This document shows, piece by piece, positions 1 through 13,648 of a DNA stretch of 13,648 nt. Each line of letters starts with the position of its first letter. Position 1 is the stretch's first letter. Position numbers and translations under genes: made by a program. The notes beneath the pieces were generated by a model. The model made no database searches and was not told where the DNA came from. It saw nothing but the letters and a program-made list of their open reading frames with translations. The DNA is from a virus: UHGV virus genome UHGV-0343520. One strand, written 5' to 3'.

Positions 1-141
<141 letters not shown>

Positions 142-1736: not shown

Positions 1737-1820
1737 TTTCTTACGTATAAACTGCTTCAATTTTGCTATGCTTCGCAAAGCTGTATCGCGAGGCGGATTG
1801 CAGACATGGACATCGTAAAA

Positions 1821-1843
1821 AAACCGCTTAATGCGGTTTTTTT
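1821..1843 (+). terminator. Rho-independent terminator downstream of Q (candidate tR'-like)
   Basis: Stem AAACCGC (1821-1827), loop TTAAT, stem GCGGTTT (1833-1839), then a T-run to 1843. An A-tract upstream means it could also terminate on the opposite strand. Confidence 0.7.
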
Positions 1844-2334
1844 ACGTCAGGAAAGCAGGGGAGAATGCTGCTAGTTGGGCAACTGGTCTTTCTGCTTGCT
1901 TAAGTGGAGAATTCGCATATTGGCGTGTAACTTGCGCAGAATACACATCTTTTACACGACTTGTTAGTTTATCCTGCGGCTTGTTATGATTATTTTAGCA
2001 TATTATCAGTTTTCACGGCCTGAATCTTGGTTAAGGCTCTTTATCCTGTTGTAATGACAGAAATAAATGGTGGATGGAATTCAGGACGGTTTGTTTTAAT
2101 AAAAAATGTAACTCAGGAAATAAGTTAACCTAACTGGAATCACTTTCGGATTATTAAGATTGAAGTGCCTTTTCTTCCTTTTTAGTATCGGTGCCAGTTC
2201 CGGGGAGAGCGGCTTTTATTGTTTGATTAGAGCTGACACGAAGAACTAATGTAGATCTGGTTTAGTCGGTATGGCTCATGATTTGAAATCTAATCAGTAG
2301 TTTATTTGTTCGAGCGCGATAGTTGGTACCATAT

Positions 2335-2380
<46 letters not shown>

Positions 2381-2723
2381 CGTGGATGAGGCTCTGGTTT
2401 TGCAGCACTGGCGTTTTTTCGTGGGGAAAGGTCTCCTGAGCTCCTTTATCGCTACCCCAAATTATAACAGAGACCAGTTATAGTTTCGGTGCTGTGTTTT
2501 TTTTACAATATTGTGATAACACATTGCTGGCGGGAGTTTTGATATTCCTTGGCAGGGGATGATGATGCGTTATCCTGATGTCGTCAACTCATATAAAATG
2601 AGATGAGAGATCATCGCCGGGTGGTTTGTAATTCGCTGTTTAGCGGGACAATATGTTGTCTGATACAAGACACCCGACGCCTCAGATTACTATAATAAAG
2701 ACGAAGCATCCTTTGTATTGACC

Positions 2724-2749
2724 AACCGCCTGTTTAGGCGGTTCTTTTT
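2724..2749 (+). terminator. Rho-independent terminator
   Basis: Stem AACCGCCT (2724-2731), loop GTTT, stem AGGCGGTT (2736-2743), followed by CTTTTT. Confidence 0.7.
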
Positions 2750-3272
2750 GGGCTGGTTTATTGTATGCCAAATGATTATTAAAAAGGTTGTGTTAATAAC
2801 AAAATCCGAAATAATATGCCTGCATATTTTTATCTTGCTTATATTGTGCATAGCAGGCTCATCCCTGCAATCAAAACTGTATGATGAGTATTTTTTGTTT
2901 TCCTTTTTTCCAGTCATCTGATGATGACCTGCTTCTTTTTAATCCGGATCGACATCAGTTTTTTAAGATAATTCCTGCGAGTTATATGCACAAATGCCAC
3001 AAACTCCGCATTTTATGTGGTTGGGAGTTGCCGGGCGCGCAGTGAGTTTGCTAAGAAAACTCCTGCATGGTGAATCCCCCTGTGCGGTGGGGTGATACCA
3101 TTAACCTTTTCTGTCGCCGACAGGTATCACGAACATTTTGTTCACCGGGAGGCACCCGGCACCATGCACTTCAATAGATTCTCTCCACATTATGGATATT
3201 CTTTCAGAATATCCCACGCAGACTTTGTGTAAATGTTAACAAATGTGCGTTTTATTTGATCTGATTCGCTGT

Positions 3273-3302
3273 TTGAGCGTCCAAAACAACGGTATATATA
3301 AT
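3273..3302 (+). promoter_or_regulatory. Sigma70-like promoter for the lipoprotein moron genes
   Basis: TTGAGC (3273-3278), 18-bp spacer, TATAAT (3297-3302). This leaves a ~25-nt leader to the ATG at 3332, which has GAGGAAAA as Shine-Dalgarno. Confidence 0.45.
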
Positions 3303-3331
3303 CCTTTACTATATGACATATGTGAGGAAAA

Positions 3332-3760
3332 ATGGGTTTTCGTAGCGCATCAATTCTTACGTTGATTATTAGTGGGATTATTATCGGGTGCACTGATGCT
3401 GTATCGACAAATTATCATGACCGTACATCATATTACTCCGATAAAGCAATAGAGACACAGTATGTGAGTTCATCTGAACGTACTTCTGATGTTAGTGAGG
3501 ATATCCGTCTGTATGCCCATCAAATCAAGAGCGCCATCGAAAAACAGTTCGGGGATGCGAGTAAGTATTCAGGAAAAGAGTGTACACTGAGAATGCATAT
3601 GGCCCCGAATGGCCTTCTACTGGAGGTTAAAAGAGAAAGTGGAGACCTCGATTTATGTCGTGAAGCGATGAATGCGATAAAGAATGCTGATATACCTGCC
3701 CCCCCTTCGCCGGAAGTATATAAAGTATTTCAAAATGGGGTGCTGGATTTTAAACCCTGA
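3332..3760 (+). CDS. Lipoprotein with TolA C-terminal (domain III)-like domain
   Basis: 142 aa. N-terminal signal peptide with lipobox IIGC. The C-terminal ~85 aa (YAHQIKSAIEKQF...CTLRMHMAPNGLLLEVK...PPSPEVYKVFQNGVLDFKP) align closely with the recalled C-terminus of E. coli TolA (...YAGQIKSAIESKF...CTLRIKLAPDGMLLDIK...VFKNAPLDFKP). AT-rich with its own promoter. Confidence 0.8.
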   Translation: MGFRSASILTLIISGIIIGCTDAVSTNYHDRTSYYSDKAIETQYVSSSERTSDVSEDIRLYAHQIKSAIEKQFGDASKYSGKECTLRMHMAPNGLLLEVKRESGDLDLCREAMNAIKNADIPAPPSPEVYKVFQNGVLDFKP

Positions 3761-3910: not shown

Positions 3911-4306
3911 GTGGGATTAAAGAAAATCGTTATGTTGACTTTTTGGGTCGGTTTTGTTGCGGGATGCACACCTTTACACCCTTCAGATTGCCACAAAACT
4001 ACTGCTACAGGTAGTTGCAGTTCAGGACGCTGGGATGATCAGGATGAATGGGGGGCGCAAGCGCGGGGAATCAGAGCTGCAATTAATGCCAAACTTGATG
4101 AGCCGCATAACTGGAAAGGGAAAAAATGCAGGTTGCATATGGAATTCTCTCAGGATGGCACGGCGTTAAAAATATCTACCAGTAACGGTGATAAAGCCTA
4201 TTGCGAAGCGATAAAGTCCGCAGCTCATAAAGCCAAATTTCCGGCCTTCAACAATCCGGAAGTCTACAGAGATTTTCAGAAATCTGGCTTTGACATGCGA
4301 GGTTAG
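3911..4306 (+). CDS. Second, divergent lipoprotein with TolA domain III-like C-terminus
   Basis: 131 aa with GTG start after GAGGA. Lipobox VAGC. C-terminal region (IRAAINAKL...KKCRLHMEFSQDGTALKIS...FNNPEVYRDFQKSGFDMRG) follows the same TolA-III pattern as the upstream gene but is more divergent. Confidence 0.75.
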   Translation: MGLKKIVMLTFWVGFVAGCTPLHPSDCHKTTATGSCSSGRWDDQDEWGAQARGIRAAINAKLDEPHNWKGKKCRLHMEFSQDGTALKISTSNGDKAYCEAIKSAAHKAKFPAFNNPEVYRDFQKSGFDMRG

Positions 4307-4453: not shown

Positions 4454-4557
4454 ATATTGCATCGTCTCCAGCATATATATCAATTAAGGCTCTGATTGAT
4501 GTGTCTGAAAGCCTACACATAATAACTATGCCATCCGTTCCGTGCGGAGGTGAGGCT

Positions 4558-4773
4558 ATGAAATCCATGGACAAAATTTCAACAGGCATTGCCTACGGCA
4601 CCTCCGCAGGCAGTGCTGGCTACTGGTTTTTACAGTTGCTCGATAGAGTAACTCCGTCACAGTGGGCTGCAATCGGTGTGCTGGGTAGTCTGGTATTTGG
4701 CCTGCTGACGTACCTGACAAACCTTTATTTCAAGATTAAAGAAGATAAGCGCAAGGCTGCGAGAGGTGAATAA
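4558..4773 (+). CDS. S: Pinholin, phage 21 S21 type (class II holin/antiholin with dual start)
   Basis: Translation [26 protein letters not shown]...[15 protein letters not shown] is near-identical to S21 as recalled. Dual-start motif M-K-S-M, with GGAGGTGA just upstream. Stop overlaps the endolysin start. Confidence 0.9.
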
Positions 4774-5270
4774 TGCCTCCATCATTACGAAAAGTCGTTG
4801 CTGCTGCTATTGGTGGCGGAGCAATTGCTATAGCATCAGTGTTAATCACTGGCCCAAGTGGTAACGATGGTCTGGAAGGTGTCAGCTACATACCATACAA
4901 AGATATTGTTGGTGTATGGACTGTATGTCACGGGCATACAGGAAAAGACATCATTCCCGGTAAAACGTATACCAAAGCAGAATGCAAAACACTCTTGAAT
5001 AAAGACCTTGCCACTGTCGCCAGACAAATTAACCCGTACATCAAAGTCGATATACCGGAAACAACGCGCGGCGCTCTTTACTCATTCGTTTACAACGTGG
5101 GTGCTGGCAATTTCAGAACATCGACGCTTCTTCGCAAAATAAACCAGGACGATATCAAAGGCGCATGTGATCAGCTACGTCGCTGGACATATGCTGGCGG
5201 TAAGCAATGGAAAGGTCTCATGACTCGTCGTGAGATTGAGCGTGAAATCTGTTTGTGGGGTCAGCAATGA
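4773..5270 (+). CDS. R: SAR endolysin (R21-type lysozyme with signal-anchor-release domain)
   Basis: 165 aa. N-terminal Gly/Ala-rich SAR domain ([18 protein letters not shown]) followed by a lysozyme catalytic region. Near-identical to phage 21 R as recalled. Confidence 0.92.
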
Positions 5271-5731
5271 ACAGAGTAACCGCGATTATCTCCGCTCTGG
5301 TTATCTGCATCATCGTCTGCCTGTCATGGGCTGTTAATCATTACCGTGATAACGCCATTACCTACAAAGCCCAGCGCGACAAAAATGCCAGAGAACTGAA
5401 GCTGGCGAACGCGGCAATTACTGACATGCAGATGCGTCAGCGTGATGTTGCTGCGCTCGATGCAAAATACACGAAGGAGTTAGCTGATGCGAAAGCTGAA
5501 AATGATGCTCTGCGTGATGATGTTGCCGCTGGTCGTCGTCGGTTGCACATCAAAGCAGTCTGTCAGTCAGTGCGTGAAGCCACCACCGCCTCCGGCGTGG
5601 ATAATGCAGCCTCCCCCCGACTGGCAGACACCGCTGAACGGGATTATTTCACCCTCCGGGAACGACTGGTAATGATGCAGGCCCAACTTGAAGGTGCTCA
5701 GCAATACATAACCGAGCAGTGTTTAAAGTAA
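5267..5731 (+). CDS. Rz: Rz, inner-membrane spanin (i-spanin)
   Basis: ATG at 5267 overlaps the endolysin stop. N-terminal transmembrane helix and coiled-coil periplasmic domain. Matches lambda Rz as recalled. Confidence 0.9.
5487..5672 (+). CDS. Rz1: Rz1, outer-membrane lipoprotein spanin (o-spanin), embedded in Rz in the +1 frame
   Basis: 61 aa. Lipobox VVGC and a proline-rich mature region ([16 protein letters not shown]). Matches lambda Rz1 and lies wholly inside Rz, the classic embedded architecture. Confidence 0.9.
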
Positions 5732-5868
5732 AATCTTAACTACAATATGATTCATTTTGATGATTGTTTCATAAGGAACAGTGAAGTAAGATCTAAGAGG
5801 AGTTAAATTTTATACAGTATAATCATAATATTGCAGCAAGGTGGTTATAATTGAAAGAATATTTAGAT

Positions 5869-7326
5869 ATGAATACATCTCATGTAAGAGTTGTTACTCA
5901 TATGTGTGGGTTCCTGGTTTGGCTCTATAGTCTTTCAATGTTGCCACCAATGGTTGTAGCATTGTTTTATAAAGAAAAAAGCCTGTTCGTTTTCTTTATA
6001 ACTTTCGTTATATTTTTTTGCATTGGTGGCGGAGCGTGGTATACAACTAAGAAATCTGGCATTCAATTACGTACCCGTGATGGGTTTATTATAATTGTAA
6101 TGTTTTGGATTTTGTTTTCTGTTATTAGTGCATTCCCTTTATGGATTGACTCAGAACTTAATTTAACGTTCATTGATGCTCTGTTTGAAGGGGTTTCTGG
6201 AATAACAACAACAGGAGCAACTGTAATTGATGATGTTAGTTCATTACCTCGGGCATATTTGTACTATCGGTCACAGTTAAATTTTATAGGTGGTTTAGGA
6301 GTTATTGTTCTGGCGGTTGCTGTATTGCCATTATTGGGTATTGGTGGTGCAAAGCTTTATCAGTCAGAAATGCCGGGGCCATTTAAGGATGACAAACTCA
6401 CTCCCCGCCTGGCCGATACGTCACGGACACTGTGGATAACTTATTCTTTATTAGGTATTGCTTGTATTGTCTGTTATAGACTTGCAGGAATGCCTTTGTT
6501 TGATGCTATTTGTCACGGGATTTCCACAGTTTCGCTTGGTGGTTTCTCAACTCATAGCGAGAGTATCGGATATTTTAATAACTATTTGGTTGAGCTGGTG
6601 GCTGGTTCTTTTTCCCTGCTATCGGCTTTCAACTTCACTCTTTGGTATATTGTTATTAGCAGGAAAACGATAAAACCTTTAATCAGAGATATTGAACTTC
6701 GTTTCTTTCTGTTAATAGCCTTAGGGGTGATCATTGTTACCTCTTTCCAGGTCTGGCATATAGGTATGTATGACTTGCATGGAAGTTTTATTCATTCGTT
6801 TTTTCTTGCCAGCTCCATGCTCACTGATAATGGTTTAGCTACGCAGGATTATGCAAGTTGGCCCACGCACACGATAGTGTTTTTGCTGTTGTCAAGTTTC
6901 TTTGGGGGATGTATAGGTTCAACTTGTGGTGGAATTAAGTCACTTCGATTTCTTATACTTTTCAAACAAAGCAAACACGAGATAAATCAGCTTTCTCATC
7001 CCAGAGCGTTGTTGAGTGTAAATGTAGGAGGGAAGATAGTTACAGATCGTGTAATGAGGTCTGTATGGAGTTTCTTTTTTCTTTATACTCTCTTCACGGT
7101 GTTTTTTATACTGGTGTTAAATGGTATGGGATATGATTTTCTTACATCATTTGCAACAGTGGCTGCATGTATTAATAATATGGGATTAGGTTTTGGGGCT
7201 ACTGCATCGTCATTCGGAGTGCTTAATGACATTGCAAAATGTTTAATGTGCATAGCTATGATTCTTGGTCGCCTTGAAATTTATCCTGTTATTATATTGT
7301 TTTCAGGTTTTTTTTGGCGCTCCTAA
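5869..7326 (+). CDS. trkG: TrkH/TrkG-family potassium uptake protein (prophage-borne)
   Basis: 485 aa from ATG 5869 (MNTSHVRV...). An in-frame TTG at 5851 with AGGTGG upstream is an alternative start. Multi-pass membrane protein with Gly-rich selectivity-filter-like segments (GITTTGAT, GIGGAK, LGGFSTH, STCGG). Strongly AT-rich relative to its neighbours. trkG is known to sit in the Rac prophage downstream of Rz/Rz1. Confidence 0.9.
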   Translation: MNTSHVRVVTHMCGFLVWLYSLSMLPPMVVALFYKEKSLFVFFITFVIFFCIGGGAWYTTKKSGIQLRTRDGFIIIVMFWILFSVISAFPLWIDSELNLTFIDALFEGVSGITTTGATVIDDVSSLPRAYLYYRSQLNFIGGLGVIVLAVAVLPLLGIGGAKLYQSEMPGPFKDDKLTPRLADTSRTLWITYSLLGIACIVCYRLAGMPLFDAICHGISTVSLGGFSTHSESIGYFNNYLVELVAGSFSLLSAFNFTLWYIVISRKTIKPLIRDIELRFFLLIALGVIIVTSFQVWHIGMYDLHGSFIHSFFLASSMLTDNGLATQDYASWPTHTIVFLLLSSFFGGCIGSTCGGIKSLRFLILFKQSKHEINQLSHPRALLSVNVGGKIVTDRVMRSVWSFFFLYTLFTVFFILVLNGMGYDFLTSFATVAACINNMGLGFGATASSFGVLNDIAKCLMCIAMILGRLEIYPVIILFSGFFWRS

Positions 7327-7412
7327 TATATGGCTGATTTATAATTGTGAGTTTAATATTATGTTGACTCACTCATTGATCCAATACCTAACTTTACCAG
7401 CAACCCCTCCGT

Positions 7413-7447
7413 CCCCAGTAGCACTGGCTGCTGGGGTGCGTTTTATT
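7413..7447 (+). terminator. Candidate intrinsic terminator downstream of trkG
   Basis: Stem CCCCAGTAGC (7413-7422), loop ACTG, stem GCTGCTGGGG (7427-7436) with one G-U pair, followed by TGCGTTTTATT. Confidence 0.5.
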
Positions 7448-7463
7448 CATAAAGCAAGGCTGT

Positions 7464-9179
7464 ATGAGCGAGAAATTAAAGATAGTCTATCGCCCATTAC
7501 AAGAATTGTCACCGTATGCGCACAACGCCAGGACGCACAGTACTGAGCAGGTGGCACAACTGGTAGAAAGTATTAAGCAATTCGGCTGGACTAATCCGGT
7601 GCTGATTGACGAAAAGGGCGAAATTATTGCGGGTCACGGTCGTGTTATGGCGGCTGAAATGCTCAAAATGGATTCTGTTCCGGTCATTGTTCTGTCTGGC
7701 CTGACGGATGAGCAGAAAAAGGCGTACCGCCTGGCAGATAATCGCCTGCCGATGAATGCTGGCTGGGATGAAGATCTGTTGCGGATGGAGCTGTCGGACC
7801 TAATCAATGCTGATTTTGATGTCTCCCTGACAGGCTTCATCCCGACAGAAATTGATGAACTGTTGACGGATGTTTTGCCCGGTACAGGAAATGAGGAGGA
7901 GCCGTATACGACGAAAATTGATACGCCTGTTTATGAGCCGTCGGGCGGTAAACCGGATATCAGTGAACTGTACGACGATACGAAAACTCAGGAGCTGATC
8001 AGCCGGATACGTTCGGCGTCCCTTGAGCCTGATATTGAGAAATTCCTCCTGTGTGCGGCAGAACGTCACACGGTGTTTAATTTCAGCAGAATTGCGGACT
8101 ATTACGCTCACGCCCCCGCTGAAATTCAGTGTTTTTTCGAGGAGTCGGCGCTGGTGATCATTGATTATCAGCAGGCTATTGAAAATGGATTTGTCCGGAT
8201 GACGCAGCGCATGGTGGAGATCATGCATGGTGGTGAGGAGGAGAATATGCGTGATGATTTTTGCGCCTTTATTCTGACTCACGGGCGACCGGACAAAGTT
8301 CTGACTTACCGGACGTTGCGTCGTGCTGGCTATACCGGGAAAATTTTTATCGTTGTTGATGATGAAGATAAGACACGGCATCAGTACATGGCTGAATTTG
8401 GTGAACAGGTGCTGGTGTTTTCCAAAGCCGATATCGCCAGTCGTTTTGACGAAGCCGATAATTTCTGTGACCGCCGCTCAATTTTTTACGCCCGTAATGC
8501 CTGTTTCGACCAGGCAAAACTGGTCGGGTGTAAATACTTCATTCAGCTCGATGATGATTATCACGAGTTCCAGTTTCGGGTGGATCGCAACTATGACCAG
8601 GCCTATTTTCCGATAAGGAAACTGGATGCGATCCTTTCTGAAATGCTGGCGTACTACGAATCAATACCTGCTCTTTCCATCGCTATGTCGCAGGGCGGGG
8701 ATTTTCTTGGTGACAATGGCGGCCATGCTTCGTGGGTGAAACGCAAGGCAATGAACAGCTTTATCTGTTCGGTTGATCGACCGTTCTCATTCATGGGGCG
8801 CATTAACGAGGATGTGAATACGTACACGAATCTCGGTCGCTGTGGTGAATTGTTTATGACGATCGGTGCTGTCCAGTTAGGGCAGAAACAGACGCAGAAA
8901 AACAGCGGCGGAATGACCGAGCTGTATCTGGATTCCGGAACCTACGTTAAAAGTTTTTACTCCGTCATGTATGCGCCGTCGTGCGTAAAAATCTCACTGA
9001 TGGGTGCCAGCCATAAACGCATTCACCATCAGGTCACCTGGAACAACGCTGCAGTAAAAATCCTTCACGAAAAATACAGGAAGAAGACACCCTGCATATC
9101 AATGGGGGTGACAAATGATTCCGTATTCGAAAGTCGAGTCTCTGGCAGCGTGCCGGATGACTGCACAACAAATCGCTGA
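7464..9179 (+). CDS. ParB/Srx-like N-terminal domain protein fused to a large uncharacterised C-terminal domain (not a recognisable methyltransferase; DxD-type motifs)
   Basis: 571 aa. The N-terminal ~130 aa (IVYRPLQELSPYAHNARTH...IIAGHGRVMAA...KKAYRLADN) is a typical ParB-like nuclease-domain module as found on phage DNA methyltransferases. The C-terminal ~430 aa has no DPPY/NPPY or FxGxG motifs but has acidic clusters (FIVVDDEDK, IQLDDDYHEF). Position between the lysis cassette and terminase is typical of phage ParB-fusion enzymes. Confidence 0.8.
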   Translation: MSEKLKIVYRPLQELSPYAHNARTHSTEQVAQLVESIKQFGWTNPVLIDEKGEIIAGHGRVMAAEMLKMDSVPVIVLSGLTDEQKKAYRLADNRLPMNAGWDEDLLRMELSDLINADFDVSLTGFIPTEIDELLTDVLPGTGNEEEPYTTKIDTPVYEPSGGKPDISELYDDTKTQELISRIRSASLEPDIEKFLLCAAERHTVFNFSRIADYYAHAPAEIQCFFEESALVIIDYQQAIENGFVRMTQRMVEIMHGGEEENMRDDFCAFILTHGRPDKVLTYRTLRRAGYTGKIFIVVDDEDKTRHQYMAEFGEQVLVFSKADIASRFDEADNFCDRRSIFYARNACFDQAKLVGCKYFIQLDDDYHEFQFRVDRNYDQAYFPIRKLDAILSEMLAYYESIPALSIAMSQGGDFLGDNGGHASWVKRKAMNSFICSVDRPFSFMGRINEDVNTYTNLGRCGELFMTIGAVQLGQKQTQKNSGGMTELYLDSGTYVKSFYSVMYAPSCVKISLMGASHKRIHHQVTWNNAAVKILHEKYRKKTPCISMGVTNDSVFESRVSGSVPDDCTTNR

Positions 9180-9366
9180 CGTTCTGGATGTTGATCTGAA
9201 CCGACTGAAAGAAAATCGGGAAGCAATGACAGATTTTTATGCGGCCATCCGTAAGGGCAGAGCGAAAGGTGAAGCCGAGTTACGAGCGGCATTGTTTAAG
9301 CTTGCCAGAAAAGGGGATGCCTTTGCTCTGCGCGAACTACTCAGGGTGGATAAAAATCAGGACTAA
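9115..9366 (+). CDS. Small hypothetical protein, possibly a helix-turn-helix DNA-binding protein preceding the terminase
   Basis: 83-aa ORF with GGGGGTGA upstream of ATG 9115. An alternative ATG lies at 9157. It overlaps the 3' end of the ParB-fusion ORF by 65 nt and ends 4 nt before the terminase small subunit start. Function not recognised. Confidence 0.45.
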   Translation: MIPYSKVESLAACRMTAQQIADVLDVDLNRLKENREAMTDFYAAIRKGRAKGEAELRAALFKLARKGDAFALRELLRVDKNQD

Positions 9367-9369
9367 CTG

Positions 9370-10464
9370 ATGAGCAGACCGGACTGGGGGGCGTTGCAGC
9401 AGGAGTATATTGCTGAATACACCCGCTCCGGTATATCTCCGGTGGCATGGTGTGAAGCAAGGGGACTGAATTACGCAACAGCCCGTCGTTACATCAAAAA
9501 AACTCCGAAAAATGCGCAGACAGAAATGTGCAAAACTGCGCAAAAAAGTGCGCAGAAAAAATCTGCGCAGACTGCACAAAAGCGGAACGAAAAATCTCAG
9601 GAAAAAAAGCCAGTATTCGATGCGGGCCTGAATGAGGGCGACGCGGAGGAATTTTCGTTCTGTCCCGATGAATTCGGCATTTCTGACCAGCAGGCTAAGT
9701 TTGCGATGCTTGTTGCTCAGGGTAAAAAGCCGACAGAGGCGTACCGACTAGCCGGTTATGAGGGGCAAGGTGCGACAGCTAACAGCAACGCCAGTCGTAT
9801 GCTTAGAAATGCCAGGGTTTTTCGCGCTATCAGCTACTTCCGCAATCAGTACCAGAAACGCTATACCGCAGACCTGGATTTACTAGTGAGTCAGTTGATG
9901 GCTATTGTCCTGGCCGACCCCAATCAGCTTGCACAATTTCGCCGTGTTAACTGCCGTTATTGCTGGGGCGAGAATCATCTCTACCAGTGGCGCGATATAG
10001 CAGAATTCGACAAGGCAGCGGCGCAGGCTTCCAGAGATGGCAAACCCGAACCGGAATATGGAGGCCTCGGCTTTGTTGATAACGCCATACCCAATCCGGA
10101 CTGCCCGAAGTGCTGCGGTGAGGGAACGGGACAGCTTTATATGGCTGATACCACTCTGCTTGATGGGGATGCGCGGCAATTATATGCAGGGGCAAAATTC
10201 GGAAAATTCGGCGTTGAGATCCTGCTGGAGGATAAGGCTGCCGCCCGGCGTGAATTGTTGCGTTTGTTTTCTGCTGGCGGGGCTTTATGTGCAGATAAAC
10301 GGCTACAGGAACTGGAAATTGAACGGCGCAGAATGGAAAACCAGAAGCTGCGCAAAGAGATCGAAACGGTGGAAGATAATGAACATCCCCAGCCTGTGGC
10401 GATCAATATTAATGTGGTTGATGCCAGAGTAAGGAGTGATGAAGATGATCTCTCCGACGCTTAA
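9370..10464 (+). CDS. Terminase small subunit (Terminase_2/P27-like core with N-terminal extension and C-terminal Cys-rich region)
   Basis: 364 aa. Central region (ISDQQAKFAMLVAQGKKPTEAYRLAGY...SRMLRNARV) is typical of P27-family small terminases. It lies immediately upstream of, and overlapping, the large subunit. Has an N-terminal HTH-like segment, a Lys/Gln-rich low-complexity repeat, and CxxC...CxxCC cysteines. Confidence 0.8.
   Translation: MSRPDWGALQQEYIAEYTRSGISPVAWCEARGLNYATARRYIKKTPKNAQTEMCKTAQKSAQKKSAQTAQKRNEKSQEKKPVFDAGLNEGDAEEFSFCPDEFGISDQQAKFAMLVAQGKKPTEAYRLAGYEGQGATANSNASRMLRNARVFRAISYFRNQYQKRYTADLDLLVSQLMAIVLADPNQLAQFRRVNCRYCWGENHLYQWRDIAEFDKAAAQASRDGKPEPEYGGLGFVDNAIPNPDCPKCCGEGTGQLYMADTTLLDGDARQLYAGAKFGKFGVEILLEDKAAARRELLRLFSAGGALCADKRLQELEIERRRMENQKLRKEIETVEDNEHPQPVAININVVDARVRSDEDDLSDA
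9513..9578 (+). repeat. Cluster of short direct repeats TGCGCA(G/A)A within the terminase small subunit gene
   Basis: TGCGCA occurs at 9513, 9537, 9549 and 9564, with variants TGTGCA (9527) and TGCACA (9573), all within ~65 bp. They encode the AQK-rich low-complexity peptide. Confidence 0.6.
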
Positions 10465-11746
10465 TGTGCCTCAGGCGCGATTTCTTTCAATGCCCCATAA
10501 ATTTAAAGCCTATATTGCTGGTTTTGGCTCGGGCAAAACATGGGTTGGGTGTGGCGGCATATGCAAGGGGATTTGGGAGCATCCAGGTATAAATCAGGGA
10601 TATTTTGCGCCAACGTATCCCCAAATTCGCGATATTTTTTACCCTACAGTGGAAGAAGTTGCTGCTGACTGGGGATTGAACGTAAAAATTAATGAGGGAA
10701 ATAAAGAGGTTCACTTTTATTACGGACGCCAGTATCGGGGAACCACTATCTGCAGATCGATGGAGAAGCCACAAACGATCGTCGGTTTCAAAATTGGTAA
10801 TGCGTTGGTGGATGAACTGGACATTTTGCCGAAGGAAAAAGCCAGAACGGCGTGGCGCAAGATAATTGCACGTATGCGTTATAAGATTGATGGACTTCGC
10901 AACGGTATTGACGTTACAACCACGCCGGAAGGATTCAAATTTGTCTACGAGCAGTTTGTTAAAGCCGTGCGTGAAAAAACAGAGCTGGCCTCACTGTATG
11001 GTCTGGTGCAGGCATCTACTTTCGATAATGAAAAGAACCTGCCAGCAGATTACATTCCTTCGCTTCTTGAATCATACCCTCCAGAGCTGATTAAAGCCTA
11101 TCTTCGAGGACAGTTTACTAACCTGACAAGTGGTACTGTTTACCATCAGTTTGACCGGAAACTGAATAATTGCGAAGAAGTGGAGCAGCCAGGGGAGCCG
11201 ATTTATATTGGGATGGATTTTAACGTTGGAAAGATGGCGGGAATCGTCCATGTGCTGCGTTTGGGGCTTCCATGTGCGGTAACTGAAATCATCAATGCCT
11301 ACGATACGCCGGATATGATCCGCATCATTAAAGAACGCTTCTGGCTGTATGATGGGAATGATTACCGGAAAGTGAGGGAAATTTATATTTATCCAGATGC
11401 TTCCGGGGATTCCAGAAAATCAAGTAACGCAAGTACGACGGATATAGCCCAGCTTAAGCAGGCTGGTTTTAACGTTGTGGTGAACAGCTCGAACCCGCCA
11501 GTAAAAGATCGCGTTAACTCAATGAATGCAATGTTCTGCAATGCCAATGGTGAGCGTCGCTATAAAGTTAATGTGAAGCGTTGCCCGTTATATGCCGAAT
11601 CTCTGGAGCAACAGGTCTGGGATGAGAAGGGGGAGCCTGATAAAAAATCTGGCAATGATCACCCGAATGATGCCGGAGGTTATTTCATCGTTAAGCAATT
11701 CCCTATTGTCAAACCGACCGGAAGAGTCACATCACTTCGGATTTAA
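10445..11746 (+). CDS. Terminase large subunit (ATPase/nuclease)
   Basis: Walker A motif AGFGSGKT near the N-terminus and acidic nuclease-domain motifs in the C-terminal half (YIGMDFNVG, YPDASGDS, NDHPNDAGG). ATG 10445 is 8 nt after AAGGAG (10431-10436). The ORF is open from GTG 10436. Overlaps the small subunit stop. Confidence 0.9.
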   Translation: MISPTLNVPQARFLSMPHKFKAYIAGFGSGKTWVGCGGICKGIWEHPGINQGYFAPTYPQIRDIFYPTVEEVAADWGLNVKINEGNKEVHFYYGRQYRGTTICRSMEKPQTIVGFKIGNALVDELDILPKEKARTAWRKIIARMRYKIDGLRNGIDVTTTPEGFKFVYEQFVKAVREKTELASLYGLVQASTFDNEKNLPADYIPSLLESYPPELIKAYLRGQFTNLTSGTVYHQFDRKLNNCEEVEQPGEPIYIGMDFNVGKMAGIVHVLRLGLPCAVTEIINAYDTPDMIRIIKERFWLYDGNDYRKVREIYIYPDASGDSRKSSNASTTDIAQLKQAGFNVVVNSSNPPVKDRVNSMNAMFCNANGERRYKVNVKRCPLYAESLEQQVWDEKGEPDKKSGNDHPNDAGGYFIVKQFPIVKPTGRVTSLRI

Positions 11747-11748
11747 TT

Positions 11749-13155
11749 ATGGCTGATATATCAACACCCAACCTCGACTATAACGATATGCTGGAGGCGT
11801 GGGATATTAACGACGCACTGATGGGCGGTACGCTTGAAATGCGCAGGCAGGGGGAAAATTATCTCCCAAAATGGCCTAACGAAGATGAAGACGCTTATAA
11901 AAAACGCCTGTCTGTGGCTACGCTACTTCCTGTGTATGAAGAAAGCATCAAGCAAAATATTGGGCGCATATTTGCAGAGCCGACAGTATTGAGTGAGGAA
12001 ACGCCGGCAAAAATCAGGGAATATGCAGAAAATATCGACATGGAGGGGAGCCGACTGGATGTGTGGGCGCAGCAATTTTTCAGCCTCGCATTTCAGTATG
12101 GTGTGGCACATGCGCTGGTGGACTATCCACGAACGGATATGAAAGAGATTCGGACAAAAGCCGATGAAAACGCGACCGGTGGTCGTCCGTACGTTACGAT
12201 GCTGAATCCACGCCAGGTTATTGGATGGAAATCGAAAGTTGAAAAAGGGAAAGTTGTTCTCACTGATTTGCGTATAAAAGAGGTCATCATTATTGATGGT
12301 GATGATTTCGGGCAGAAGAAGGTGGAGCAGATCCGCCATATTATGCCCCGTCGAGTTGAAATTTATCGACGTAGCGAAGGCACTAATGGCGAATCTGTCT
12401 GGACGCTTCATGAGTCATGGAATACCAGCCGTGATGATATTCCTCTGGTAACACTGTACACGAAGAAAACAGGATTTATGCGTGGTACACCGCCATTGCT
12501 TAATCTTGGCTTGCTGAATATCAAGCACTGGCAAAGCCAGAGCGAGCAGGACAATATTCTTCATGTTGCCCGCGTTCCATTGCTGGTGGCCTACGGGCTG
12601 GACAGGAATGAAGAACTGACGGTTGGTGCATCCACCGCTACGATTTTTGAGGACAGAACAAAAAATGGCCTCGAATATGTTGAACATAGTGGCGCAGCGA
12701 TAGAATCTGGCGAAACATCACTTGAGAAGCTGGAAAATCAGATGCGTCATGCCGGCGCTAAACTTCTGCGTGCTGAAAATACATCCACCAAATCTGTTGA
12801 TCAGACTAATGAAGAGCGAATGCAGGAAAACTCGCCGCTTTATACAATGGCGAACTCCCTCGAAGATGCCCTCGATAATATTCTCCAGATAATGGCGGAA
12901 TGGATCGGAGAGAGTTGCGGTGGCAATGTGGATGTGCGCACTGAACTGGATGTATCTGCCCAGGTGTTTGACTCATCCTCCGCGCTGGCTGTTCAGTCAT
13001 TGCGTCAGGGCGGTGATATACGTCAGATTGATGCGGTTCGGGTGTTGCAGGCGTTGAAATTTATCGATCAGGATTCCCGTCCAGAGGAAGTGATCGATGA
13101 ATTAAAAAATCAGAGTGTAATGCTGATGGAAATCAATGATGCAAACCGTGAATGA
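11749..13155 (+). CDS. Portal protein
   Basis: 468-aa ORF immediately after the large terminase and before a head-morphogenesis-like gene. Size and acidic C-terminus are consistent with a portal. Family not confirmed by search. Confidence 0.75.
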   Translation: MADISTPNLDYNDMLEAWDINDALMGGTLEMRRQGENYLPKWPNEDEDAYKKRLSVATLLPVYEESIKQNIGRIFAEPTVLSEETPAKIREYAENIDMEGSRLDVWAQQFFSLAFQYGVAHALVDYPRTDMKEIRTKADENATGGRPYVTMLNPRQVIGWKSKVEKGKVVLTDLRIKEVIIIDGDDFGQKKVEQIRHIMPRRVEIYRRSEGTNGESVWTLHESWNTSRDDIPLVTLYTKKTGFMRGTPPLLNLGLLNIKHWQSQSEQDNILHVARVPLLVAYGLDRNEELTVGASTATIFEDRTKNGLEYVEHSGAAIESGETSLEKLENQMRHAGAKLLRAENTSTKSVDQTNEERMQENSPLYTMANSLEDALDNILQIMAEWIGESCGGNVDVRTELDVSAQVFDSSSALAVQSLRQGGDIRQIDAVRVLQALKFIDQDSRPEEVIDELKNQSVMLMEINDANRE

Positions 13156-13648
13156 ACGGCTGCGTGATGAATCAATTGCTCATGCAGTCTGGATATCCCG
13201 CTATAGCACTGGCGTGGCTGCCAGAATGGTGAAAATACTGAATGACAGCGATGCGGAACTTACTGCTCGCCTGCTGATAGCACTGGACAGCCTCGATCCA
13301 GGTAGTTTTACCGTTAAGCGCCTGGAGTCACTTCTGGCGAGCGTCAGAGAGGTTGGCTGGAATACATTAAGACCGTTTGCTATTGATAACGCAACCGGCG
13401 AACTGGTTATTGGAACCAAGCTGTCTGCAAGTCTGAACGGTAACGCATTGACAGCAACAAAGCTGCAAACGCCAAGACTGGTTTCTGGGGTTGAGTTTGA
13501 TGGTTCAAAAGATATTACTTTAACCGCCGCGCATGTGGCTGCTTTTGCCAGAAGGGCAACGGATACATATGCCGATGCGGATGGTGGCGTTCCCTGGAAT
13601 GCCGAATCAGGCGCTTACAATGTCACCCGCTCTGGCGACAGCTATATT
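13136..13648 (+). CDS. Partial ORF (runs off window): head-morphogenesis-like N-terminus continuing into tail-fibre-like repeat sequence; possible fusion or pseudogene
   Basis: ATG 13136 or 13139 overlaps the portal stop, and the frame is open to the window end. The N-terminus (MMQTVNERLRDESIAHAVWISRY...) sits where a minor head protein is expected. From about residue 80 the sequence (GTKLSASLNGNALTATKLQTPRLVSGVEFDGSKDITL) resembles side-tail-fibre repeats. Confidence 0.55.
   Translation, partial: MMQTVNERLRDESIAHAVWISRYSTGVAARMVKILNDSDAELTARLLIALDSLDPGSFTVKRLESLLASVREVGWNTLRPFAIDNATGELVIGTKLSASLNGNALTATKLQTPRLVSGVEFDGSKDITLTAAHVAAFARRATDTYADADGGVPWNAESGAYNVTRSGDSYI

What the first reader, a model, noticed from the sequence alone, without database searches (positions are those of the whole stretch)
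5732..7463. AT-rich trkG potassium transporter as cargo between the lysis cassette and packaging genes
A complete TrkH/TrkG-family K+ transporter gene, with markedly lower GC than its neighbours, sits between Rz/Rz1 and the ParB-fusion gene and is followed by a hairpin plus T-rich tract. This matches the known Rac-prophage position of trkG in K-12. Here it is embedded in an apparently more complete late region (intact S/R/Rz and terminase), which may represent a less decayed relative of Rac.
Basis: partly seen in the sequence, partly recalled or inferred. Interest (0 to 1): 0.4.

Follow-up and report, generated by a model that had tools for sequence, protein, structure and literature searches.

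The report
Rac prophage trkG potassium transporter
This is the well-known trkG potassium-uptake gene carried as AT-rich foreign cargo in the E. coli Rac prophage, here sitting in a copy of Rac that keeps more of its late genes than the K-12 copy; it is real but ordinary and already described.

Summary
Window 5869..7326 (+) encodes a 485-aa protein that is 100% identical to E. coli K-12 TrkG and 41% identical to K-12 TrkH. It lies between an intact Rz/Rz1 spanin pair and a parB-like gene. It is the most AT-rich stretch of the window: GC 0.38 and GC3 0.32, against 0.47 and 0.48 elsewhere (chi-square p about 1e-13). A hairpin with a short T-tract follows at 7413..7446.

K-12 Rac shares only window 5287..7717, at 99.6% identity. 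K-12 rzpR, rzoR and ynaK are therefore truncated remains of the intact genes here. ydaY is a tail-region gene that lies outside the window.

The foreign origin, low GC, Rac location, partial H-NS repression and Na+-dependent K+ uptake of trkG are all published. About 29% of complete E. coli genomes carry the gene, and 5% carry most of this window.

What this analysis adds:
- This copy is also decayed. It has an IS5 end at 1..138 and a minor-head/stfR deletion fusion at about 13354.
- The "ParB fusion" is a private 1-nt deletion that joins two genes.
- Closely related lambdoid phages carry bor in the same slot.
- Other TrkG-clade genes in Enterobacterales are chromosomal and less AT-rich.

Verdict: correct, already known, low interest.

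The parts
5869..7326 (+). trkG, the K+-translocating subunit of the Trk uptake system (485 aa). A possible alternative TTG start lies at 5851 and would give 491 aa.
   Evidence: 100% aa identity to K-12 TrkG. Pfam TrkH 5e-145. TIGR00933 scores 415 against a cut-off of 331. PDB TrkH structures 3pjz and 4j9u match at 1e-120. GC 0.381, GC3 0.323.
5732..5868 (+). AT-rich 5' spacer (GC 0.255), the presumed trkG promoter and H-NS target region. It holds TATAAT hexamers at 5818..5823 and 5846..5851 and an SD-like AAGGTGG at 5838..5844.
   Evidence: The consensus scan found only a weak promoter-like site at 5722..5751. That a promoter lies here is inferred from K-12, which keeps this DNA but lacks the phage late promoter and still expresses trkG (PMC9898762).
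7413..7446 (+). Terminator-like hairpin (7413..7436) plus TGCGTTTTAT, located in the 137-nt 3' spacer 7327..7463.
5267..5731 (+). Rz (i-spanin), intact. In K-12 it survives as the pseudogene rzpR, which lacks the first 20 nt and is fused to ydaW.
   Evidence: Pfam Phage_lysis 3.7e-53. K-12 homology begins at window 5287.
5487..5672 (+). Rz1 (o-spanin lipoprotein) embedded in Rz; equals K-12 rzoR.
   Evidence: 61 aa, identical to K-12 RzoR.
4558..5270 (+). Phage-21-type holin S (4558..4773) and endolysin R (4773..5270). Both are absent from K-12 Rac.
   Evidence: Pfam Phage_holin_2_1 4.5e-35 and Phage_lysozyme 5.7e-45. No K-12 Rac match.
7464..8246 (+). parB-like (ParB_N nuclease-type) gene. 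K-12 ynaK corresponds to its first 85 codons.
   Evidence: Pfam ParB_N. phrog_620 1.3e-90. ynaK alignment.
8247..9179 (+). TET-associated glycosyltransferase (TAGT) gene. It is fused in frame to parB here by a 1-nt deletion at 8242.
   Evidence: Pfam PF20691 7e-34. phrog_842 5.6e-104. Indel analysis.
9370..13155 (+). Packaging module: terS 9370..10464, terL 10445..11746, portal (DUF4055) 11749..13155.
   Evidence: Pfam Terminase_2, Terminase_6N/6C and DUF4055.
1..138 (.). End of an IS5 element, abutting the nin/Q region.
   Evidence: 100% identical to the end of K-12 IS5Y. This junction is found in none of 5426 complete E. coli genomes.
13139..13648 (+). Minor head protein gene (about the first 71 codons) fused in frame near 13354 to the C-terminal half of side-tail-fibre gene stfR. 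This fusion deletes the head and tail genes.
   Evidence: This junction is found in none of 5426 complete E. coli genomes.

Best explanation
The interval holds trkG, a lysogenic-conversion ('moron') gene of Rac-family lambdoid prophages.

A TrkH-family K+ transporter gene from a second, sporadically distributed Enterobacterales paralogue clade was captured by a lambdoid phage. It sits in the gap between the lysis cassette (S-R-Rz/Rz1) and the packaging module (parB-like, TAGT, terS, terL). In close relatives that gap holds other cargo, such as bor.

The gene has its own AT-rich 5' region and a terminator-like 3' hairpin. It is expressed from the resident prophage under partial H-NS repression. 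Its product joins the host's TrkA gating ring to give Na+-dependent K+ uptake, plus some Na+ uptake, alongside chromosomal TrkH.

Because it benefits the host, it is kept under purifying selection while the phage genes around it are deleted in many different ways. K-12 Rac and this window show two different stages of that decay.

What is shown here: the identity of the gene, its position, the composition shift, selective retention, and the alternative occupants of the slot. What is taken from the literature on the identical K-12 protein: transport properties, H-NS repression and TrkA dependence. What is inferred: an autonomous promoter in 5732..5868 and termination at 7413..7446.
For: - Identity: 100% aa identity to K-12 TrkG and 41% to TrkH. 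The score falls below the TrkH equivalog cut-off but above the TrkH-family cut-off. The residues D121, E231 and D327 and the four pore-loop glycine motifs are present.
- Composition: GC 0.381 and GC3 0.323 against 0.468 and 0.485, p about 1e-13.
- Position: inside a prophage, on the same strand as the late genes, between Rz and parB. The arrangement is the same in fuller Rac-like prophages integrated next to ttcA and in strain APEC 102026.
- The slot is variable: phage PhiR11_1 has S-R-Rz 97% identical to the window but carries bor and small ORFs between Rz and Nu1. Homology to the window stops at about 5658.
- Selective retention: 1551 of 5426 complete genomes carry the interval, 1516 records at 99% identity or more, but only 291 genomes carry 80% or more of the window. 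In 80 IMG/VR contigs the block of homology around trkG ends at many different points to the right (7351 to 13220) and to the left, but never inside trkG. dN/dS between E. coli and E. albertii is 0.047, with dS 0.93.
- Origin: TrkG-clade homologues at 62-79% identity in E. fergusonii, Citrobacter, Pectobacterium, Enterobacter, Buttiauxella and Morganella lie in ordinary chromosomal neighbourhoods. Their GC3 values are 0.43-0.72. Most have a GC close to that of their flanks; the Pectobacterium gene is lower (0.428 against 0.497).
- Literature: low GC (38% against 53%), Rac location, horizontal origin, partial H-NS repression, Na+-dependent K+ uptake and shared TrkA are reported in PMC9898762, which cites Schloesser et al. 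1991. trkG and recE are described as the best-conserved Rac genes in PMC5700373.
Against: - No sigma-70 promoter with a good -35 element was found in the 5' spacer. The scan gave only a 9-of-12 match at 5722..5751, and the number of promoter-like sites is no higher than in shuffled sequence.
- The hairpin has a short T-run and a fold z-score of only -1.9. It also lies outside the segment shared with E. albertii, which ends at 7330, so it may belong to the phage backbone rather than to the cargo.
- No relative was found with Rz directly joined to parB-like, that is, a true empty site.
- The AT-rich donor lineage was not identified.
Confidence: 0.9

Rival explanations
1. trkG is mainly a phage-benefit gene of the lytic cycle. 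It would be co-transcribed with S-R-Rz and the packaging genes from the late promoter under Q antitermination. K+ influx late in infection would support phage yield or tune holin-triggered lysis timing, and benefit to the lysogen would be secondary.
For: trkG is on the same strand as the late operon and sits directly between Rz and the packaging genes. Only a weak terminator-like hairpin follows it, and no strong promoter precedes it. In E. coli trkG is always linked to at least the 3' part of Rz, and in E. albertii to the last 40 nt or so of Rz.
Against: trkG is kept intact and under strong purifying selection in prophages that have lost Q, S, R, the terminase or the head genes. These include K-12, this window, and most of the 1551 carrier genomes. 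In K-12 it is expressed without any late promoter and supports growth (PMC9898762). Closely related phages do without it and carry bor in its place.
Confidence: 0.07
2. trkG is not phage cargo. It would be a resident chromosomal gene, or part of a separate islet, that ended up inside prophage DNA through rearrangement or nested insertion.
For: All other TrkG-clade genes examined are chromosomal. The E. albertii copy lies among non-Rac genes: copCD, an NleF-like effector gene and rsmF.
Against: The gene is collinear with the late operon in every Rac-like prophage examined, and 142 IMG/VR viral contigs carry it. No IS, integrase or repeat flanks it within 5732..7463. The E. albertii copy still carries the last 40 nt or so of Rz upstream, which marks it as a prophage remnant. 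PHROGs has a dedicated family for the gene (phrog_1916).
Confidence: 0.02
3. The gene is an inert remnant, silenced or non-functional, and its conservation only reflects recent common descent.
For: It is AT-rich and a known H-NS target. 1516 records are 99% or more identical, which by itself could reflect recent spread.
Against: The protein is identical to K-12 TrkG, which has been shown experimentally to transport K+ and to complement loss of TrkH (PMC9898762). dN/dS is 0.047 across a synonymous divergence of 0.93 to E. albertii. The ORF is intact while neighbouring genes are disrupted.
Confidence: 0.01

Closest known systems
trkG (b1363) of the cryptic Rac prophage of E. coli K-12
   Same: The protein is identical. 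The DNA is 99.6% identical over window 5287..7717, with 10 differences; the two inside trkG are synonymous. The neighbours are the same: Rz/Rz1 upstream and the parB-like gene downstream.
   Different: K-12 has lost everything from the ydaW (DUF1627) gene up to Rz codon 7, and everything from parB codon 85 up to the tail-chaperone gene ydaY. This window keeps the nin/Q region, S, R, full Rz, parB-like, TAGT, terS, terL and portal. It has its own lesions instead: an IS5 end at 138, a 1-nt deletion at 8242 and a minor-head/stfR fusion near 13354.
TrkH (b3849), the core-genome Trk K+ transporter of E. coli, and the solved TrkH structures 3PJZ and 4J9U
   Same: Same fold family (PF02386, TIGR00933), with full-length alignment and the four pore-loop glycine motifs. 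According to the literature, both use TrkA.
   Different: Only 41% identical. The score is below the TrkH equivalog cut-off (449.7 against 866). GC is 0.38 against 0.53. TrkG needs Na+ and also conducts Na+, while TrkH does not; trkG is repressed by H-NS and trkH is not (PMC9898762).
Lambdoid late-region morons, such as lambda bor next to Rz
   Same: Non-essential cargo in the gap between the lysis cassette and the terminase genes, with a composition unlike the backbone. PhiR11_1, whose S-R-Rz is 97% identical to the window, has bor in exactly this gap.
   Different: bor is a small lipoprotein gene on the opposite strand. trkG is a 1.46-kb polytopic membrane transporter gene on the late-gene strand, and it depends on host partner proteins.

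Membership tests
TrkH/TrkG family K+ transporters (Pfam PF02386, TIGR00933) | Full-length match to the family profile above the curated cut-off | tested here: met
   PF02386 scores 484 bits against a cut-off of 27, covering profile positions 3-500 of 502. TIGR00933 scores 415.4 against a cut-off of 331. PDB TrkH matches at 1.2e-120 over residues 7-485.
TrkH/TrkG family K+ transporters (Pfam PF02386, TIGR00933) | Four pore loops, each with the conserved selectivity-filter glycine | tested here: met
   The motifs TTTGA (113), SLGGF (222), TDNGL (319) and NNMGL (436) are present. The role of the glycines is taken from PMC9898762.
TrkG orthologue (as opposed to TrkH) | Closer to K-12 TrkG than to TrkH, and does not reach the TrkH equivalog score | tested here: met
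   100% identical to TrkG and 41% to TrkH. NF008020 (TrkH equivalog) scores 449.7 against a cut-off of 866.
TrkG orthologue (as opposed to TrkH) | Na+-dependent K+ uptake with D327, and dependence on TrkA | not testable with these tools
   D327 is present. The function was shown for the identical K-12 protein in PMC9898762.
Phage moron (lysogenic-conversion cargo) | Gene with no role in the phage cycle, inserted between conserved phage modules, and absent from the same slot in close relatives | tested here: met
   The gene lies between Rz and the parB/terminase genes. PhiR11_1 has bor in that slot. No relative with an exactly empty site was found.
Phage moron (lysogenic-conversion cargo) | Base composition distinct from the phage backbone | tested here: met
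   GC 0.374 against 0.468, p = 2.6e-13. GC3 0.323 against 0.485, p = 4e-11.
Phage moron (lysogenic-conversion cargo) | Own promoter, active in the lysogen | tested here: inconclusive
   Only weak consensus matches were found; TATAAT hexamers lie at 5818 and 5846 without a good -35 element. Indirect support: K-12 expresses trkG although the late promoter region is deleted.
Phage moron (lysogenic-conversion cargo) | Own terminator | tested here: inconclusive
   A hairpin at 7413..7436 is followed by TGCGTTTTAT. The fold z-score is -1.9. The site lies beyond the segment shared with E. albertii.
Rac prophage family | Near-identical DNA shared with K-12 Rac, and the same gene order as Rac-like prophages integrated at ttcA | tested here: met
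   99.6% identity over 2431 nt to K-12 Rac. 99.5% identity over window 4547..13354 to the ttcA-integrated prophage in ON470595.
Rac prophage family | Integration next to ttcA, with intR | not testable with these tools
   The attachment site and the integrase gene lie outside the window.

The most novel reading that the evidence does not exclude
In intact, inducible Rac-like phages, trkG may be read through from the late promoter together with the lysis and packaging genes. It would then act as an auxiliary ion-homeostasis gene of the lytic cycle, for example by sustaining K+ and membrane potential and so setting holin-triggered lysis timing or burst size. Its role in the lysogen would be a later domestication. 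The constant linkage of trkG to the 3' end of Rz, even in the divergent E. albertii remnant (dS 0.93), would then reflect function and not only history.
Probability: 0.07. Interest if true: 0.4.

Novelty: already known. Interest (0 to 1): 0.1.

Why it matters
It matters little beyond annotation. trkG is a textbook example of a host-useful gene delivered by a prophage and then retained while the phage decays.

This window is useful mainly as a fuller reference for reading K-12's Rac pseudogenes:
- rzpR corresponds to Rz with its 5' end removed.
- rzoR corresponds to Rz1.
- ynaK corresponds to the first 85 codons of a parB-like gene, which in intact relatives is followed by a DNA-glycosyltransferase-family gene.

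The window also shows that the gap between Rz and the terminase genes is a cargo slot shared with bor-carrying lambdoid phages. The still unidentified AT-rich donor of trkG is a minor open question.

Tried and rejected
- I looked for an 'empty site', meaning Rz joined directly to the parB-like/TAGT genes without trkG. In the phage collection, every close DNA relative of the parB-TAGT genes also carries trkG (blastn). The distant protein-level relatives found by tblastn are unrelated phages of Lactobacillus, Haloarcula, Nocardia and Vibrio. The slot comparison therefore rests on PhiR11_1 with bor.
- The GenBank 'phage' records that carry trkG (ON4705xx) might have shown an active phage. They are in-silico prophage predictions from clinical isolates and include host flanks, so they give no evidence of virions.
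- I searched for the window's source strain through its two edge junctions. Neither junction is present in any of 5426 complete E. coli genomes, so the source remains unidentified.
- I searched for tRNA genes in the Q-S spacer and found none. At Rfam gathering thresholds the only match in the window was STnc100.
- I looked for an AT-rich donor. The closest homologues outside the phage-linked E. coli/E. ruysiae/E. albertii allele, in E. fergusonii, Citrobacter and Pectobacterium (75-79% identity), are less AT-rich and chromosomal. No donor was identified.
- dN/dS against E. fergusonii could not be computed because synonymous sites are saturated.

Full report
**Observation**

The interval 5732..7463 runs from the stop codon of Rz to the start codon of the next gene. 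It contains one long ORF, 5869..7326 on the + strand (ATG to TAA, 485 aa). The product matches Pfam TrkH (PF02386) at 5e-145 over almost the whole profile. It also matches the solved TrkH structures 3PJZ and 4J9U at 1e-120.

The protein is 100% identical to E. coli K-12 TrkG and 41% identical to K-12 TrkH. Against NCBIfam it passes the TrkH-family subfamily model (415 bits, cut-off 331). It falls far short of the TrkH equivalog model (449.7 bits, cut-off 866).

**Composition**

- trkG has GC 0.381 and GC3 0.323. The 137-nt upstream spacer has GC 0.255, and the whole interval 0.374.
- The rest of the window has GC 0.468, and thirteen other genes have a pooled GC3 of 0.485.
- Chi-square p is 2.6e-13 for GC and 4e-11 for GC3.
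- The lowest-GC 1458-nt window anywhere in the sequence starts at 5722.
- A second, milder low-GC stretch lies in the ORF-poor Q-S spacer at about 1800..3400.

**Flanks**

- Upstream lies a complete phage-21-type lysis cassette: holin 4558..4773, endolysin 4773..5270, Rz 5267..5731 and the embedded Rz1 5487..5672.
- Downstream lie a parB-like gene, a TET-associated glycosyltransferase (TAGT) gene, a small ORF, terS, terL and the portal gene.
- A hairpin at 7413..7436 is followed by TGCGTTTTAT. It looks like a terminator but is weak. The T-run is four bases, the fold z-score is -1.9, and the number of such sites is not above the shuffle expectation.

**Relation to K-12 Rac**

Only window 5287..7717 is shared with K-12 Rac. 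It is 99.6% identical, with 10 differences; the two inside trkG are synonymous. The correspondences are:

- K-12 rzpR is Rz without its first 20 nt, fused to the remnant of ydaW.
- rzoR equals Rz1 (identical).
- ynaK is the first 85 codons of the parB-like gene, followed by a junction.
- ydaY has no counterpart in the window. In fuller Rac-like prophages it lies after the tail-tube gene (ON470595, integrated next to ttcA with intR; APEC 102026).

So K-12 carries two large deletions that this window does not have.

The window's prophage is nevertheless defective in its own way.

- Bases 1..138 are the end of an IS5 element.
- Near 13354 the first 71 or so codons of the minor head protein gene are fused in frame to the C-terminal half of stfR, which removes the head and tail genes.
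- Neither junction occurs in any of 5426 complete E. coli genomes.

**Distribution and selection**

- The interval is present in 1551 of 5426 complete E. coli genomes. In 1516 records it is 99% or more identical.
- Only 291 genomes hold 80% or more of the window.
- In 80 IMG/VR contigs the block of homology around trkG ends at many different positions on both sides. Right ends range from 7351 to 13220, and left ends cluster at module boundaries 2457, 4543 and about 5265. No end falls inside trkG.
- E. albertii carries a 93% aa / 84% nt copy in a non-Rac remnant. The shared segment is only 5689..7330 and still includes the last 40 nt or so of Rz.
- dN/dS between the two is 0.047, with dS 0.93.

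Together these results show a gene kept by purifying selection while the surrounding phage genes erode.

**Cargo slot**

Phage PhiR11_1 has an S-R-Rz cassette 97% identical to the window. Homology stops at about window 5658, and bor plus small ORFs fill the gap before the terminase gene Nu1. The gap between Rz and the terminase genes is thus a variable cargo slot. I found no relative with Rz joined directly to the parB-like gene.

**Origin**

TrkG-like proteins at 61-79% identity form a clade that is scattered across Enterobacterales.

- Those examined lie in ordinary chromosomal neighbourhoods: E. fergusonii 79%, Citrobacter 77%, Pectobacterium 75%, Enterobacter 70%, Buttiauxella 68% and Morganella 62%.
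- Pectobacterium and Morganella share a position downstream of pth-ychF.
- Most of these genes have a GC close to that of their flanks, although the Pectobacterium gene is lower than its flanks (0.428 against 0.497). Their GC3 ranges from 0.43 to 0.72.
- The phage-linked E. coli and E. albertii alleles are the most AT-rich of those measured (GC3 0.32). The E. ruysiae copy is also phage-linked and equally AT-rich.
- The donor was not identified.

**Mechanism**

The following comes from the literature on the identical K-12 protein. TrkG is the membrane subunit of a Trk system that shares TrkA with TrkH. It needs about 2 mM Na+ for K+ uptake, and D327 is implicated; that residue is present here. 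It also conducts Na+ and can substitute for TrkH. It is partly repressed by H-NS and StpA (PMC9898762). The low GC, the Rac location and the phage-mediated origin were already noted there and in Schloesser et al. 1991 (cited). PMC5700373 lists trkG and recE as the best-conserved Rac genes.

What I infer is an autonomous promoter in the AT-rich spacer. It contains TATAAT hexamers at 5818 and 5846 but no good -35 element. The inference rests on K-12, which expresses trkG even though the phage late promoter region is deleted.

**Verdict**

The observation and the interpretation are correct. The finding is already known and is of low interest. Minor additions are listed under things noticed in passing.

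Noticed in passing
window 7464..9179 (indel at 8242): The 571-aa 'ParB fusion' ORF exists only because of a 1-nt deletion in a GAGGAGGAGG run, which is the Shine-Dalgarno sequence of the downstream gene. 37 of 104 related loci have the undeleted two-gene form (parB-like 264 aa plus TAGT 311 aa), and none has the window's form. It may be a private mutation or a sequencing error.
   Followed up: yes
window 7464..9179; phage hits: A ParB_N-nuclease-like gene followed by a TET-associated glycosyltransferase gene (PF20691, phrog_842 'beta-glucosyl-HMC-alpha-glucosyltransferase') sits just upstream of terS. The same pair is found in Lactobacillus phages c5, phiLdb and jlb1, Haloarcula HHTV-2, Nocardia NTR1 and large Vibrio phages. 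No TET/JBP or other base-modifying gene is evident in the window, so what the transferase acts on in Rac-like phages is unclear.
   Followed up: partly
window 1..138: This is the end of an IS5 element, 100% identical to the end of K-12 IS5Y, abutting the DUF1367/nin region. The junction is absent from all 5426 complete E. coli genomes.
   Followed up: yes
window 13139..13648 (junction about 13354): There is an in-frame fusion of the first 71 or so codons of the phage minor head protein gene to the C-terminal half of side-tail-fibre gene stfR (97% identical to K-12 stfR). This implies deletion of all head and tail genes between them. The junction is absent from all 5426 complete E. coli genomes.
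   Followed up: yes
window 3332..3760 and 3911..4306: Two paralogous small ORFs carry lipoprotein-like signal peptides (…IIGC and …VAGC) and a TolA C-terminal domain (PF06519; both fall in phrog_5772, function unknown). They lie between the Q region and the holin gene. They could be cargo that interferes with TolA-dependent colicin or filamentous-phage entry, but this was not tested.
   Followed up: no
window 3035..3221 (+), within the ORF-poor stretch 1737..3331: There is an Rfam match to the sRNA STnc100 (86.6 bits, gathering score 47) in the low-GC spacer downstream of the Q-like gene. Positions 2240..2380 resemble the tRNA-Thr/Gly region of a related prophage at 77% identity, but ARAGORN finds no tRNA there, so these may be decayed tRNA genes.
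   Followed up: partly
window 5838..5871: A TTG at 5851 is preceded by AAGGTGG at 5838..5844. This arrangement is conserved upstream of trkG in E. albertii and E. fergusonii. It would give a 491-aa protein, which is the length of most TrkG-clade homologues and of the PHROG profile. The annotated ATG start (485 aa) may therefore not be the only start, or not the true one.
   Followed up: partly
L007 (E. albertii NBRC 107761) 5819..7462: The E. albertii trkG (93% aa identity, dS 0.93 against E. coli) sits in a prophage remnant between copCD and rsmF, next to an NleF-like effector gene. Only the last 40 nt or so of Rz are preserved upstream. The synonymous divergence looks large for these two species, which hints at separate acquisition from related phages.
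   Followed up: partly
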